DNA of 28,316 bases, taken from Gammaproteobacteria bacterium. GTDB lineage: Bacteria > Pseudomonadota > Gammaproteobacteria > Eutrophobiales > Eutrophobiaceae. Positions 13,328-17,682 of this stretch are shown piece by piece. Positions within the stretch are counted from its first letter, which is position 1; each line of letters opens with the position of its first letter. Both the position numbers and the translations under genes were made by a program. The DNA is taken from positions 1 to 28,316 of the forward strand of contig JAAXHV010000241.1 in the NCBI GenBank assembly GCA_012270695.1. The letters are read 5' to 3'. Below the pieces are notes generated by a model. The model saw only the letters and a program-made list of their open reading frames with translations, ran no database searches and was not told the origin of the DNA.

Positions 13328-14377
13328 ATGTTAAACAGGTTAAGGGGGTTTTTCTCCAGCGATTTGTCCATTGACTTGGGTACCGCCAATACCCTGATCT
13401 ATGTTCGCGGCAAAGGTATCGTCCTGAACGAACCATCAGTGGTTGCCGTCGGGAAAACCGAGCATGGGGCAGTCAATATGAAGGCAATCCGCGCAGTCGG
13501 TCGTGCGGCCAAGAGCATGCTTGGACGAACACCTGAGCATATCAAGGCAATAAGGCCGCTGAAAGACGGGGTAATCGCTGATTTCACTCTAACCGAAAAA
13601 ATGTTGCAGTATTTCATTCACTCAGTCCATGGCGATACCTTTTTCAAACCCAGCCCCAGGGTGCTGATTTGCGTCCCCTGCGGCTCGACCCAGGTGGAGA
13701 AAAGAGCAATTCGCGAATCCGCCTTAGGCGCAGGCGCAAGAAAGGTGTACCTGATAGAAGAACCCATGGCTGCCGCTATGGGCGCGGGGATGCCGGTAGG
13801 TGATGCGAGCGGCTCAATGATACTGGATATAGGCGGCGGCACCACTGAAGTCGCTGTCATTTCCCTGAACGGCATCGTTTATGCGGCTTCGGTACGCATT
13901 GGAGGTGACAAATGCGACGAGGCCATCATCAATTACGTACGGCGGAATTATGGCACCCTGATCGGTGAAGCGACCGCCGAAAATATAAAAAAGACCATCG
14001 GTTGCGCTTTTCCCCCGGATGAGGTTAACGAAATGGAAATCAGGGGACGCAACCTGGCCGAGGGAATACCTCGCAGTTTTACCATAAGCAGCAATGAAAT
14101 ACTGGAGGCATTACAGGAGCCGTTGTCAGGGATAGTCGATGCGGTTAAAGATGCCCTGGAAAAAACACCGCCCGAATTGGGTTCAGACGTGGTCGAACGG
14201 GGTATCGTGTTGACCGGCGGTGGCGCCTTGTTGCAGGACCTGGACCAACTGTTGATGAAGGAAATAGGATTATCTGTTATCGTTGCCGAAGATCCCTTGA
14301 CCTGTGTCGTACGCGGCGGCGGCCGCTTCATTGAACTGCTTGATGAATATGGCGACGAGATACTGGTTTTTGAATAA
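13328..14377 (+). CDS. mreB: Rod shape-determining protein MreB
   Basis: [52 protein letters not shown]. Confidence 0.99.
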
Positions 14378-14400
14378 TCTGTAACAAGGAGTAACAGCCA

Positions 14401-15255
14401 ATTACCACATTATTTGTAAAAAGCCTCTCATCACACGCAAAGATTATTATCTGTGTGCTGTTGTCGATAGTCCTGATGGTGGTTGATCACAAGAACGGCC
14501 ACCTGGAATTTACTCGTACTGCCATTTCAACCGTTGTTTATCCACTCCAATATGCAGCGAGTTTGACTGCCGATGTGCCTCGACAAATTTCATTACTCAT
14601 GGTAACCAGGCAAGCGTTACAGGATGAGAATGAAAAGCTGCGCGAAGAACAACTTTACTTGTATTCCAAGCTGCAACGGGTTGCAACACTGGAAGATGAA
14701 AACCGACGCCTGCGGGCATTGCTGGAGTCGTCGGTTGAGTTTTATGAACGGGTGTTGGTGGCGGAACTGGTCGGCGTTGAACTGGAACCTTTCCGCCAAC
14801 AGATGATAATCAACAAGGGACTGACAGACGAGGTGTTCAACGGCCAGCCCGTTGTCGATTCAGGTGGCATCATGGGACAGATAATCCACGTGTCTCCGTT
14901 TTCGAGCACCGTGTTGTTAATCACCGACCCGAGTCACGCAATACCGGTACTGGTAAATCGCAATGGCCTGCGTTCCGTAGCGGTTGGTCTCGGTCAGGAT
15001 AATGTTCTGTCACTGGAACACGTCCCGGTTAATGCCGATATCAAAAAAGGAGATTTAATCGTTTCATCGGGCCTTGGCAGAAAATTCCCCAGGGGTTATC
15101 CGGTAGGAACCGTATCGAGTGTCTCACGTATTCCCGGAGAACTTTTTTCCAGCGTGCTGGTAACACCCAGCGCGAAGTTCGGTGAGAGTCGAGAGGCATT
15201 ATTACTCTGGCCGGACCAGCCGAATGCTACGACTTCAGACGTGGCAATGAACTAG
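14401..15255 (+). CDS. mreC: Rod shape-determining protein MreC (probable ATT start at 14401; track start is GTG 14455)
   Basis: ENxRLRALL coiled coil, INKG, VLLITD, GDLIVSSGLGRKFPRGYPVG. AAGGAG at 14386-14391 lies 9 nt before an in-frame ATT. Confidence 0.96.
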   Translation: MTTLFVKSLSSHAKIIICVLLSIVLMVVDHKNGHLEFTRTAISTVVYPLQYAASLTADVPRQISLLMVTRQALQDENEKLREEQLYLYSKLQRVATLEDENRRLRALLESSVEFYERVLVAELVGVELEPFRQQMIINKGLTDEVFNGQPVVDSGGIMGQIIHVSPFSSTVLLITDPSHAIPVLVNRNGLRSVAVGLGQDNVLSLEHVPVNADIKKGDLIVSSGLGRKFPRGYPVGTVSSVSRIPGELFSSVLVTPSAKFGESREALLLWPDQPNATTSDVAMN

Positions 15256-15261
15256 TAGCTA

Positions 15262-15750
15262 ATGCCGTTAGTCAGACACAACCGCGGATGGGTGATTGTT
15301 GTCAGCTTCATCGTTGCTTTTCTGCTGACTACCATACCGCTGCCGGGATGGTTGGCAGACTGGCGACCTGCATGGGTTGCCATGATGGTGATCTACTGGT
15401 GTGTGGTTTTGCCCGAACGGGTCGGAGTCGCTATTGCCTGGATACTCGGACTTTTGCTGGACGTATCCACCGGGGCGCTGCTGGGCCAGAATGCCCTGGG
15501 GCTGGCCGTGATTGCATACCTCACGCTGCGCCTGCACAAACAAATCAGGATATTTCCGCCGATACAACAGTCTATTCTCGTCTGCTTTTACCTGTTACTG
15601 TTACAGTTTTTCAGCTTGTGGATTCGCGGCATCATAGGTGTCCCCCCACAGCACTGGACATTCTGGGCGCCGGTTTTAAGCAGTGTGTTATTGTGGCCGA
15701 TATTTTTCGTTATCATGCGTGGCATTCGGCACAAATATAACGTTTTTTGA
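15262..15750 (+). CDS. mreD: Rod shape-determining protein MreD
   Basis: 162-aa hydrophobic protein: WRPAWVAMMVIYW, GLLLDV, LLGQNAL. Directly after mreC. Confidence 0.96.
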   Translation: MPLVRHNRGWVIVVSFIVAFLLTTIPLPGWLADWRPAWVAMMVIYWCVVLPERVGVAIAWILGLLLDVSTGALLGQNALGLAVIAYLTLRLHKQIRIFPPIQQSILVCFYLLLLQFFSLWIRGIIGVPPQHWTFWAPVLSSVLLWPIFFVIMRGIRHKYNVF

Positions 15751-15813: not shown

Positions 15814-17682
15814 TTGATGGCGATACAAACCACGAACAAAGGTCCGGATTGGAAAATAAACCTGGTCCACAGGCGGATCTATTGGACAGCAGCGCTGGTA
15901 CTGATTATTACCGGGCTGATGCTGTTACAGATTTTTAACCTGCAAGTCGCCAAACACGATCATTTCACAACCTTATCAAAGAGTAATCACATAAAAATTT
16001 TACCGGTAGTGCCGTCCCGTGGGTTGATATTCAGCAGTGACGGCGTATTGCTGGCAGATAATCGCCCCTCGTTCACCCTTGATATCGTGCCGGAACGGGT
16101 TGCAGACGTGGATTCTGTAATCGATCAATTAAGCAGGATGATTACCGTTACCCCCGATGATATACAGCGTTTCAGAGAATTAAAGAAACGCACCCGCCGG
16201 TTTGAAGGCATTCCCCTCAGGTTGAACCTGGATGACGAGGAAGTCGCACTGATTTCAGTGAACCGTCACCTGCTTCCGGGAGTTGACGTCGTAGCCAGTC
16301 TGAGCCGCTACTATCCACTGGCTGACAGCCTGGCACATACGGTCGGGTACGTGGGAATGATCGATGAAGAAGAGTTCGAGAACCTGAATAAATCAAACTA
16401 CAGCAGCACAAGCTATGTCGGCAAATCAGGAATCGAGAAGGCTTACGAGGACCTGTTGCATGGTTACGTCGGCTACCAGCAGGTAGAGGTAAATGCCCAG
16501 GGAAGAAAAATCCGTGAAATATACAGGGAACATCCCGAATCGAGTAAGAATTTGTACCTGACCATCGATGCTTCCATGCAAATCACTGCAGTTCAGGCCC
16601 TCAACGGGAGGAGGGGCGCAATTGTAGCTATCGACCCCAATACCGGCGCGGTTCTGGTTTCCGCCAGTTCCCCCGGCTATAACCCCAACCTGTTTGTTGA
16701 CGGCATCGACAGGAAAATCTATGCAGACTTGCTGCGATCCAAGGACACGCCTTTATTAAACCGGTCGTTACAGGGTAAATATCCTCCCGGCTCCACGATT
16801 AAACCAATGCTGGCCCTGGGAGGCTTGTATCATGGCCGGCGCGAAGCCGAGACTGAGACATGGTGTCCGGGCTGGTATTCGCTGAGGGGCAGTTCTCACC
16901 GCTATCGAGACTGGAAAAAGCAGGGACATGGTCATATAGATATGGTAAACGCCATCTCCCAATCCTGTGACGTGTACTTTTACGTCCTTGCCAAGGACAT
17001 GGAGATTGACTTGCTCCACCGGACAATGACGGATTTTGGTTTTGGCAAACCGACAGATATAGATATAGGAGGCGAAGTGGCGGGCCTGGTCCCTTCAACG
17101 CAATGGAAACGCGAAGCGCTGGGCCAACCCTGGTATCCTGGTGAAACCCTGATCACCGGCATAGGCCAGGGAGCTACCACGGTAACGCCCATCCAGCTGG
17201 TGGTAGCTACGGCAGTAATAGCAAACCGAGGCAAACTGGTGCGCCCTTACCTGCTGTCGGAAGTAAGGGATTCGGCAACTGGACAGCAAGTGATCAGGGC
17301 GTCTGCCCATGAAGGCAAACAGCTGATATCCGCCGACCCTGAGGATTGGGACGTGATTATTCATTCGATGCAGGAAGTCGTACACGGTGAGAGAGGCACT
17401 GCGCGGAGTTCCGGCGCGGGGACGGAATATCGGTTCGCCGGAAAGACCGGCACGGCACAGGTAATTAAGGTCGGCCAAGACGAAGAATACGATGAAGAAG
17501 AGATACCGGAAGAGTTTCGGGACCATGCCCTGTTTATTGCATTTGCTCCGGTTGAAGCGCCTGAGATAGCACTGGCCGTGATCGTTGAGAATGGGGGAAG
17601 CGGGTCAACGACTGCAGCGCCGTTAGCCAGGGAATTGCTGGATCATTATTTTCGCCGGCAAAACCGGGTTGAGGCGGGATGA
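15814..17682 (+). CDS. mrdA: Penicillin-binding protein 2
   Basis: Single N-terminal TM helix, PSRGLI, SxxK in PPGSTIK, SCD, KTG in GKTGTAQ. Start is TTG 15814 or ATG 15817. Confidence 0.97.
   Translation: MMAIQTTNKGPDWKINLVHRRIYWTAALVLIITGLMLLQIFNLQVAKHDHFTTLSKSNHIKILPVVPSRGLIFSSDGVLLADNRPSFTLDIVPERVADVDSVIDQLSRMITVTPDDIQRFRELKKRTRRFEGIPLRLNLDDEEVALISVNRHLLPGVDVVASLSRYYPLADSLAHTVGYVGMIDEEEFENLNKSNYSSTSYVGKSGIEKAYEDLLHGYVGYQQVEVNAQGRKIREIYREHPESSKNLYLTIDASMQITAVQALNGRRGAIVAIDPNTGAVLVSASSPGYNPNLFVDGIDRKIYADLLRSKDTPLLNRSLQGKYPPGSTIKPMLALGGLYHGRREAETETWCPGWYSLRGSSHRYRDWKKQGHGHIDMVNAISQSCDVYFYVLAKDMEIDLLHRTMTDFGFGKPTDIDIGGEVAGLVPSTQWKREALGQPWYPGETLITGIGQGATTVTPIQLVVATAVIANRGKLVRPYLLSEVRDSATGQQVIRASAHEGKQLISADPEDWDVIIHSMQEVVHGERGTARSSGAGTEYRFAGKTGTAQVIKVGQDEEYDEEEIPEEFRDHALFIAFAPVEAPEIALAVIVENGGSGSTTAAPLARELLDHYFRRQNRVEAG

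What the first reader, a model, noticed from the sequence alone, without database searches (positions are those of the whole stretch)
14386..14457. mreC appears to start at a non-canonical AUU codon
Seen: AAGGAG (14386-14391) is followed after 9 nt by ATT (14401), which is in frame with mreC. An in-frame TAA at 14392-14394 rules out any earlier start, and the track's GTG 14455 has no SD. The 18 added residues (ITTLFVKSLSSHAKIIIC) resemble the usual gammaproteobacterial MreC N terminus (MKPLFxxGPS...) and supply the basic cytoplasmic segment before the TM helix. Known: AUU starts in E. coli infC and pcnB lower translation and respond to IF3. Inference: MreC stoichiometry is limited, or tied to translation status, through its start codon.
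Basis: partly seen in the sequence, partly recalled or inferred. Interest (0 to 1): 0.62.

Follow-up and report, generated by a model that had tools for sequence, protein, structure and literature searches.

The report
mreC starts at conserved ATT codon
The cell-shape gene mreC in this uncultured marine gammaproteobacterium begins at the weak start codon ATT behind a strong ribosome-binding site. The same ATT/ATC/ATA start is kept in about two thirds of gammaproteobacterial families sampled, including every Pseudomonas relative checked, so it looks like a selected way of throttling MreC synthesis that gene finders routinely miss.

Summary
AAGGAG (14386-14391), an in-frame TAA (14392-14394) and ATT (14401) lie in the mreC frame. 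No ATG/GTG/TTG occurs before GTG 14455.

ATT 14401 is almost certainly the real start:
- It is the only candidate with an SD (-8.0 kcal/mol, against -0.9 for GTG 14455 and -1.6 for TTG 14461).
- The 18 added codons evolve like coding sequence.
- GTG and TTG lie inside the only membrane helix.
- The curated MreC profile TIGR00219 is matched from position 3 with the extension, and only from position 18 without it.
- ATT is present in 21 of 23 genomes of the genus.

The feature is much wider than the window. ATT/ATC/ATA sits at the same position in 64-71 of 106 class-wide genomes and in 29 of 29 Pseudomonadaceae, nearly always behind a strong SD. G is three times rarer at the third base than at neutral sites. 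It is not a genome-wide habit here.

The proposed purpose, low and IF3-sensitive MreC synthesis, is inferred and not tested. RefSeq already places the start there in Pseudomonas. No paper in the held library mentions it. Earlier first-stage readers of this scan flagged the same thing in four other genomes.

Verdict: a new member of a known kind.

The parts
13328..14377 (+). mreB (349 aa), the upstream gene on the same transcript; stop TAA at 14375-14377
   Evidence: ORF list; PF06723 MreB_Mbl, 479 bits
14386..14391 (+). Shine-Dalgarno AAGGAG, 9 nt upstream of ATT
   Evidence: Sequence. Duplex energy to the anti-SD is -8.0 kcal/mol, and only 12% of first canonical starts of long ORFs in this genome reach -7. 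An equivalent SD is present at 92% of ATH-start orthologues.
14392..14394 (+). In-frame TAA that closes the mreC frame upstream and excludes any earlier start
   Evidence: An in-frame stop lies within 10 codons upstream in 91 of 133 ATH-start orthologues.
14401..14403 (+). ATT, the proposed initiation codon of mreC (read by initiator tRNA as fMet)
   Evidence: Aligns with Met1 of E. coli MreC (ATG AAG CCA ATT TTT). ATT is present in 21 of 23 genomes of the genus. ATT/ATC/ATA is found at the same profile position in 133 of 199 unique loci.
14401..14454 (+). 18-codon N-terminal extension missed by gene callers: a short basic cytoplasmic tail plus the first third of the membrane helix
   Evidence: Divergence by codon position is 0.21/0.14/0.46, against 0.27/0.15/0.45 in the next 60 codons. 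It adds 11 bits and profile positions 3-17 of TIGR00219.
14437..14484 (+). Hydrophobic core of the single N-terminal membrane helix (residues 13-28, AKIIICVLLSIVLMVV)
   Evidence: Kyte-Doolittle scan. GTG 14455 is residue 19 and TTG 14461 is residue 21, so both lie inside the helix.
14455..14463 (+). GTG 14455 and TTG 14461, the starts used by automatic gene calls; judged not to be the real start
   Evidence: SD energies are -0.9 and -1.6. P0001 starts at TTG 14461. Either start would leave only 8-10 hydrophobic residues.
14401..15255 (+). mreC as re-annotated here: 284 aa plus stop at 15253-15255, followed by a second TAA
   Evidence: Translation; TIGR00219 at 199 bits against a cut-off of 92.75, and PF04085 at 141 bits
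15262..15750 (+). mreD, the downstream gene of the operon
   Evidence: PF04093 MreD, 88.7 bits

Best explanation
mreC is translated from ATT 14401. A 30S subunit docks on the strong SD AAGGAG 9 nt upstream. Initiator fMet-tRNA pairs with AUU despite the mismatch at the third base, and the product is a 284-aa bitopic MreC with a short basic cytoplasmic tail and a complete membrane anchor. AUU/AUC/AUA are poor start codons that IF3 discriminates against. The strong SD and weak codon together therefore give MreC a low, fixed and probably IF3- and growth-state-sensitive share of the ribosomes that read the mreBCD mRNA. Shown here: the start position, its gene-specific conservation, and the avoidance of ATG. 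Inferred: the low output and the IF3 sensitivity. The confidence figure is for the start site. I put the regulatory purpose at about 0.4-0.5.
For: 1. Between TAA 14392 and GTG 14455 there is no canonical start, and ATT 14401 is the only in-frame candidate up to 14479 with an SD (-8.0 kcal/mol; all others -1.6 or weaker).
2. Codons 2-18 show the same coding periodicity of divergence as the next 60 codons in 21 congeners: 0.21/0.14/0.46 against 0.27/0.15/0.45.
3. GTG 14455 and TTG 14461 are residues 19 and 21 of a hydrophobic core spanning residues 13-28.
4. TIGR00219 aligns from profile position 3 at 199 bits with the extension, and from position 18 at 188 bits without it.
5. In the genus, 21 of 23 genomes have ATT and one has ATC.
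6. Of 96 unique loci from named MAGs, 72 have ATT/ATC/ATA. In a class-wide sample fetched blind to the start codon, 64 of 106 do so strictly, and at least 7 more have it offset by 1-3 codons. In Pseudomonadaceae the count is 29 of 29.
7. 119 of 133 unique ATH loci have no in-frame canonical start upstream, and the first downstream one is at median codon 16.
8. SD energy at ATH starts has a median of -7.5, against -2.5 at internal in-frame ATH codons.
9. The third base changed at least 38 times among T/C/A but only 9 times to or from G. G is 12% at this site against 36% at four-fold sites of the same genes.
10. It is not a genome-wide habit: SD+ATH occurs in frame 61 times, against 56 and 46 out of frame.
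11. infC in the genus also starts at ATC/ATT, so the IF3/AUH circuit exists in this lineage.
12. Published reporters put AUU/AUC/AUA at 1-2% of AUG (10.1101/063800) or 6-8 fold lower (PMC3592434). Non-AUG mRNAs are depressed by nutrient limitation and ppGpp (PMC5499595).
Against: There is no experimental N-terminus, ribosome-profiling or reporter data for this organism or, in the library searched, for any mreC. All genomes of the clade are MAGs. Counts across genomes are not phylogenetically independent. The link between ATH and a strong SD (and between ATG and a weak SD) could not be confirmed with independent pairs, because only 4 supported pairs exist. infC itself was not found in this 89%-complete assembly. 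About a third of lineages, E. coli included, manage with ATG, so the weak codon is not obligatory. A few close relatives have a canonical ATG 2-5 codons upstream of the retained Ile codon (P0005, P0083, P0164).
Confidence: 0.88

Rival explanations
1. The automatic gene model is right. Translation starts at GTG 14455 or TTG 14461, and the conserved upstream stretch is untranslated leader.
For: Gene callers choose these codons (P0001 from TTG 14461; relatives mostly 259-270 aa). GTG and TTG are efficient start codons.
Against: Neither has an SD (-0.9 and -1.6). Both lie inside the membrane helix. The upstream 17 codons show protein-type conservation and third-position divergence. The position of the first downstream canonical codon varies between relatives (codon 3 to 25 and beyond), while the ATH codon is fixed. 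The truncated protein lacks profile positions 1-17 of TIGR00219.
Confidence: 0.04
2. ATT is the real start but has no regulatory meaning. It is a tolerated relic whose weakness is offset by a strong SD, so output is ordinary and nothing senses IF3.
For: ATH starts carry much stronger SDs than ATG starts (median -7.5 against -3.3), as compensation would predict. E. coli does the job with ATG and almost no SD. PMC5499595 stresses that non-AUG genes can be highly expressed.
Against: A single change to ATG is always available and G is the commonest third base at neutral sites (36%), yet ATG holds only 12% of loci. The third base moved among T/C/A at least 38 times against 9 times to or from G. Retention in 29 of 29 Pseudomonadaceae and about 100 other families argues for purifying selection against ATG in that SD context.
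Confidence: 0.3
3. ATT is used mainly by ribosomes that have just terminated on mreB 23 nt upstream (re-initiation or coupling), so MreC output is a fixed fraction of MreB translation and not an independent initiation event.
For: The gap is short in this window (23 nt) and is 9-30 nt in about a third of ATH loci. With a 20-nt spacer, about 40% of second-cistron translation was re-initiation in E. coli reporters (PMC3592434). An in-frame mreB deletion lowers MreC protein in P. aeruginosa for unknown reasons (10.64898/2026.08.02.742333).
Against: The gap ranges from 9 to 243 nt with a median of 47 among ATH loci, so coupling cannot be the general rule. A strong SD is kept, which suits de novo 30S binding. 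An in-frame deletion keeps termination at the mreB stop, so the Pseudomonas polar effect does not specifically point to coupling.
Confidence: 0.15
4. Sequencing or assembly error: the true codon is ATG.
For: The window comes from a fragmented MAG (762 contigs, 6% contamination).
Against: ATT is present in 20 other independently assembled genomes of the genus, several of them single-contig. ATT/ATC/ATA is present in more than 130 further unique loci.
Confidence: 0.01

Closest known systems
E. coli infC (IF3) AUU start
   Same: A non-canonical AUU/AUC start behind an SD that is phylogenetically conserved and gene-specific. The same arrangement is seen for infC in this genus (GGAGGA, 7 nt, ATC).
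   Different: For infC the codon closes an autoregulatory loop, because IF3 represses its own AUU. MreC has no known role in translation, so any IF3 sensitivity would be an input and not feedback. The infC case is proven experimentally; this one is not.
E. coli pcnB (poly(A) polymerase I) AUU start
   Same: An AUU start interpreted as a way to keep a potentially harmful protein scarce (Binns and Masters 2002, cited). This is the simplest reading for MreC too.
   Different: pcnB is a monocistronic-type case in one lineage. In mreC the weak codon sits on the second gene of an operon, right after an abundant partner's gene, and is kept across some 100 families.
Streptomyces sigR GTC start repressed by IF3 (PMC5472188), E. 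faecalis ebpA ATT start (PMC4447247)
   Same: Non-canonical starts shown to attenuate expression, in sigR through IF3. In ebpA the annotated downstream ATG was wrong, as here.
   Different: They involve different genes and phyla. Both are narrow in distribution and experimentally verified.
Conserved non-AUG starts of gammaproteobacterial cyaA (UUG), tufA/fus and hupB (GUG) (PMC5499595, Table 1)
   Same: Gene-specific, phylogenetically conserved departure from AUG within the same class, taken by those authors as a sign of regulation.
   Different: Those are canonical alternatives that IF3 accepts. The mreC codon belongs to the IF3-rejected AUH class and is not in that list.
E. coli K-12 mreC
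   Same: An orthologue with the same operon and an N-terminus that aligns residue for residue (M-KPIF against (M)-TTLF).
   Different: It starts at ATG with essentially no SD, and has a hairpin in a 65-nt mreB-mreC spacer. It belongs to the minority ATG state.

Membership tests
MreC (NCBIfam TIGR00219 equivalog; Pfam PF04085) | Whole-protein score above the curated cut-off | tested here: met
   TIGR00219 scores 199.2 bits against a cut-off of 92.75; PF04085 scores 141.4 bits against 28
MreC (NCBIfam TIGR00219 equivalog; Pfam PF04085) | N-terminal cytoplasmic tail plus a single membrane helix before the coiled coil and beta-barrel core | tested here: met
   Met only if translation starts at ATT 14401. 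The hydrophobic core spans residues 13-28 and is preceded by K7, H12 and K14. From GTG or TTG only 8-10 hydrophobic residues remain.
MreC (NCBIfam TIGR00219 equivalog; Pfam PF04085) | Operon context mreB-mreC-mreD(-mrdA) | tested here: met
   MreB is at 13328-14377, MreD at 15262-15750, and a PBP2-like ORF runs from 15814
Bacterial genes with a genuine AUU/AUC/AUA start (infC, pcnB kind) | No canonical in-frame start that could give the conserved full-length protein | tested here: met
   TAA at 14392 closes the frame and the first canonical codon is 18 codons downstream. The same holds in 119 of 133 unique ATH loci.
Bacterial genes with a genuine AUU/AUC/AUA start (infC, pcnB kind) | SD at working distance from the AUH codon, above background | tested here: met
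   AAGGAG with a 9-nt spacer, -8.0 kcal/mol. 92% of ATH starts reach -5 or lower, against 21% of internal ATH codons.
Bacterial genes with a genuine AUU/AUC/AUA start (infC, pcnB kind) | The AUH codon is conserved at the orthologous position while the residues after it are conserved as protein | tested here: met
Bacterial genes with a genuine AUU/AUC/AUA start (infC, pcnB kind) | Protein N-terminus mapped to the AUH codon, with Met as first residue | not testable with these tools
Bacterial genes with a genuine AUU/AUC/AUA start (infC, pcnB kind) | Expression rises when the codon is changed to AUG or when IF3 fidelity is lowered | not testable with these tools
   Needs an experiment. Only general reporter data exist.

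The most novel reading that the evidence does not exclude
The pairing of a strong SD with an AUH start on mreC is an ancient, selectively maintained translational valve. It makes the supply of the elongasome scaffold MreC depend on IF3 activity and ppGpp or nutrient state in most Gammaproteobacteria, Pseudomonas included. That would make mreC a third broadly conserved AUH-start gene after infC and pcnB, and a direct link between translation-initiation fidelity and cell-shape control.
Probability: 0.3. Interest if true: 0.75.

Novelty: new member of a known kind. Interest (0 to 1): 0.6.

Why it matters
**Annotation.** Standard gene finders cut 14-25 residues, including part of the only membrane helix, from MreC in most Gammaproteobacteria. 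Public calls for this clade are mostly 259-270 aa instead of about 284. Even NCBI's pipeline placed one relative's start at the wrong internal ATT.

**Biology.** Only infC and pcnB are textbook AUU genes in E. coli. An essential morphogenesis gene that keeps an IF3-disfavoured start across about 100 families, avoiding the one-step change to ATG, implies that MreC dosage relative to MreB is under tight selection. It offers a simple, testable route by which growth state could reach the cell-wall elongation machinery.

**Practice.** Because every Pseudomonadaceae genome sampled carries it, the idea can be tested at once in cultured, genetically tractable strains. It also bears on anyone who clones or complements mreC from the annotated start.

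Tried and rejected
- **Genome-wide relaxed start-codon use (as in earlier Asgard findings of this scan): rejected.** In G000, SD+ATH upstream of the first canonical start is no commoner in frame (61) than out of frame (56 and 46).
- **Regulatory RNA or attenuator in the mreB-mreC junction: none found.** The fold z-score is -0.83, there is no Rfam match, and no promoter- or terminator-like site.
- **Tight translational coupling as the general mechanism: not supported.** The stop-to-start gap runs from 9 to 243 nt.
- **Phylogenetically independent test of 'ATH goes with strong SD, ATG with weak SD': underpowered.** Only 4 supported pairs exist, so the contrast is reported as descriptive.
- **infC in the window's own genome: not found.** The assembly is 89% complete, so I used 5 complete congeners instead.
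- **Literature: nothing on the mreC start.** Eight full-text searches found no paper that discusses it. One broad query returned only noise.
- **Unpublished genome:** It could not be removed from the N-terminus profile, which was built before it was fetched and does not include it.

Full report
**What is in the window.** The region holds the operon mreB (13328-14377), mreC, mreD (15262-15750) and a PBP2-like gene. After the mreB stop (TAA 14375-14377) come 8 nt, then AAGGAG (14386-14391), an in-frame TAA (14392-14394), CAG CCA, and ATT at 14401. The frame then runs open through GTG 14455 and TTG 14461 to a stop at 15253-15255. No ATG, GTG or TTG lies in frame between 14395 and 14454. The public gene call for this gene (P0001, 264 aa) begins at TTG 14461.

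**Which codon starts the protein.** I scored every in-frame ATG/GTG/TTG/CTG/ATH codon from 14395 to 14479 for pairing of its upstream 18 nt with the 16S anti-SD tail. ATT 14401 scores -8.0 kcal/mol, and every other candidate scores -1.6 or weaker. In this genome only 12% of first canonical starts of long ORFs reach -7, so this is among the strongest SDs in the genome. It is the strongest in the operon: mreB scores -2.2 and mreD -1.5.

From ATT the product is (M)TTLFVKSLSSHAK followed by a hydrophobic core at residues 13-28. GTG 14455 and TTG 14461 are residues 19 and 21, so a protein begun there keeps only 8-10 hydrophobic residues and no cytoplasmic tail. The curated MreC equivalog profile TIGR00219 (283 positions) aligns from profile position 3 at 199.2 bits when the 284-aa protein is used. 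With the 266-aa protein it aligns from position 18 at 187.8 bits. The E. coli K-12 gene begins ATG AAG CCA ATT TTT, and its Met1 aligns with the ATT codon with no gap up to the conserved D-x-R/K after the helix.

**Are the 18 codons coding?** Across 21 genomes of the genus there are no indels in this stretch. Mean pairwise divergence by codon position in codons 2-18 is 0.206/0.141/0.457, which matches the next 60 codons (0.265/0.148/0.447). Upstream of ATT the sequences lose alignment, and in-frame stops appear at varying places. The ATT itself is invariant in these 21 genomes, although other Ile codons in the first 78 codons use ATT 64, ATA 34 and ATC 28 times. Two more divergent members of the genus differ. 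One has ATC (L026). One has no Ile codon there and a GTG 11 codons upstream (L025).

**How far the feature extends.** The window's nearest named relatives are uncultured gammaproteobacterial MAGs, several from marine and sponge samples.
- Among 96 unique mreC loci from the relatives and named MAGs, the aligned codon is ATT in 48, ATC in 13 and ATA in 11. ATG occurs in 9 and TTG in 2. Most of the rest have a GTG one or two codons upstream.
- Named carriers include Methylococcaceae, Methyloprofundus, Sedimenticolaceae, Thiohalomonas, lucinid symbionts and Thiotrichaceae MAGs.
- To reduce bias I drew 300 genomes evenly from the class (about 200 families) and searched for PF04085, the C-terminal domain, which is blind to the start. 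I fetched 110 of the hits in score order and located the first residue with an N-terminus profile.
- Of the 106 loci where the N-terminus was found, 64 have ATC (33), ATT (18) or ATA (13) exactly at profile position 1, and 9 have ATG there. Among the 33 others, at least 7 have an ATH with a strong SD displaced by 1-3 codons. That makes roughly two thirds.
- In Pseudomonadaceae, 29 of 29 informative loci from about 15 genera have ATC (24) or ATT (5), each behind AGGAG/GAGGA.

**Is it selected?**
- Of 133 unique ATH loci, 119 have no canonical in-frame start between the upstream stop and the ATH codon. The first canonical codon downstream lies at median codon 16, inside the helix.
- SD energy at ATH starts has a median of -7.5 kcal/mol, with 92% at -5 or lower. 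At 550 internal in-frame ATH codons of the same genes the median is -2.5, with 21% at -5 or lower (Mann-Whitney p about 1e-49; related genomes are not independent).
- On a FastTree of 199 unique N-termini, with the first residue excluded, the third base changed at least 38 times among T, C and A and only 9 times to or from G.
- The choice among T/C/A follows composition: median locus GC is 0.61 for ATC, 0.49 for ATT and 0.52 for ATA. G is the commonest base at four-fold sites of these genes (36%) but occupies only 12% of first codons.
- So mutation explores the third position freely and the best start codon is avoided.
- The 18 ATG-type genes have weak SDs (median -3.3), and E. coli has almost none. 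This looks like two ways of reaching a modest output. Only 4 well-supported independent contrasts exist, so I report it as a description only.

**Gene-specific, not a habit of the organism.** Among the 1044 long ORFs of the window's own genome with at least 8 codons before the first canonical start, a strong SD plus ATH occurs in frame in 61. It occurs in the two other frames in 56 and 46, and mreC is among the in-frame hits. infC was not found in this 89%-complete assembly. In five complete congeners it has no canonical start and reads GGAGGA, 7 nt, ATC GCA ATT AAA, the usual IF3 arrangement.

**Mechanism.** There is no significant RNA structure (z = -0.83), no Rfam family and no promoter or terminator signal at the junction. 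The site is therefore a plain SD plus start codon on the mreB-mreC transcript.

Published E. coli reporters place AUU/AUC/AUA at 1-2% of AUG (10.1101/063800) or 6-8 fold below AUG and GUG (PMC3592434), with Met as the first residue. Translation of non-AUG mRNAs is strongly reduced by nutrient limitation and ppGpp, and IF3 is the discriminator (PMC5499595).

The best-supported reading has three parts. The strong SD guarantees where initiation happens. The weak codon sets how often it happens. The rate is open to modulation by IF3 and growth state.

The mreB stop lies 23 nt upstream here, so some re-initiation is plausible. With a 20-nt spacer, about 40% of second-cistron translation was re-initiation in reporters. 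Across ATH loci, however, the gap ranges from 9 to 243 nt, so coupling is not the general basis. A 2026 preprint reports that an in-frame mreB deletion lowers MreC protein in P. aeruginosa for unknown reasons, and that mreCD are essential there. That is relevant background and not evidence for the mechanism.

**What is already known.** Eight full-text searches found no paper that mentions the mreC start codon. The review-like section of PMC5499595 lists conserved non-AUG starts in Gammaproteobacteria (cyaA, tufA/fus, hupB) but not mreC.

Annotation practice is mixed:
- JGI, ENA and Logan calls are truncated.
- RefSeq proteins of Stutzerimonas and Pseudomonas begin M-KPLFAKGP at exactly the position where near-identical genomes read ATC or ATT. 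Older NCBI and Prodigal-type calls begin at the internal Met.
- One NCBI call in this clade (P0054) uses a different, internal ATT.

So NCBI's pipeline already uses the start implicitly in cultured Pseudomonas, but it appears undescribed as a biological feature. Earlier first-stage readers of this scan noted an ATT or ATC start of mreC in four other genomes, none of them followed up. My survey agrees with them.

**Verdict.** The ATT start is strongly supported, at about 0.9. Its purpose, low and IF3-sensitive MreC synthesis, is plausible but untested, at about 0.4-0.5. It is a new member of the known class of AUH-initiated bacterial genes, notable for its breadth and for sitting in an essential cell-shape operon. 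No claim here rests on the unpublished genomes flagged, and L135 (G063) was excluded from the tree and the final tallies.

Noticed in passing
L221-L225 (infC loci of five same-genus genomes), about position 1240-1260 of each: infC has no canonical start. It reads GGAGGA, 7 nt, ATC GCA ATT AAA AAA CAG, so IF3 in this genus also starts at ATC (or ATT two codons later). infC was not found in the window's own 89%-complete assembly.
   Followed up: partly
L016 (G007) / protein P0054: NCBI's call for this relative's MreC begins MSSHVK. That is an internal ATT 10 codons after the conserved ATT, so the pipeline accepts ATT starts but picked a position inside the cytoplasmic tail.
   Followed up: partly
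L220:1979-2045 (E. coli K-12 mreB-mreC spacer) and the 18 ATG-type loci: mreC genes that start at ATG tend to have weak or no SD (median -3.3 kcal/mol against -7.5 for ATH starts). E. coli also has a GC-rich hairpin in the spacer. This suggests two alternative ways of keeping MreC output modest, but it is not significant with independent contrasts.
   Followed up: partly
L079 (JALXDW010000172.1, Chromatiales MAG), first codon of mreC: GTT sits at the conserved first position, with AGGAG 7 nt upstream and no canonical start before codon 14. It is either a GTT start or a base error in a low-coverage contig.
   Followed up: no
Proteins P0005, P0083, P0164: Some relatives have a canonical start 2-7 codons upstream of the retained Ile codon (MEYHPINTLF, MPIKTLF, MAHKEQVIKPLF). 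These may be secondary gains of a canonical start or annotators' choices, and whether both starts are used is unknown.
   Followed up: no
window 15814-15819: The PBP2-like gene (mrdA) opens with TTG ATG. Neither codon has a recognisable SD (0.2 kcal/mol), so its true start is uncertain.
   Followed up: no
L025 (G012, same genus): This is the only genus member without an Ile codon at the position (TTT TTT CCA ACC TTG TTC). It has a GTG 11 codons upstream and a much longer open frame, which may be a lineage that switched to a canonical start.
   Followed up: no
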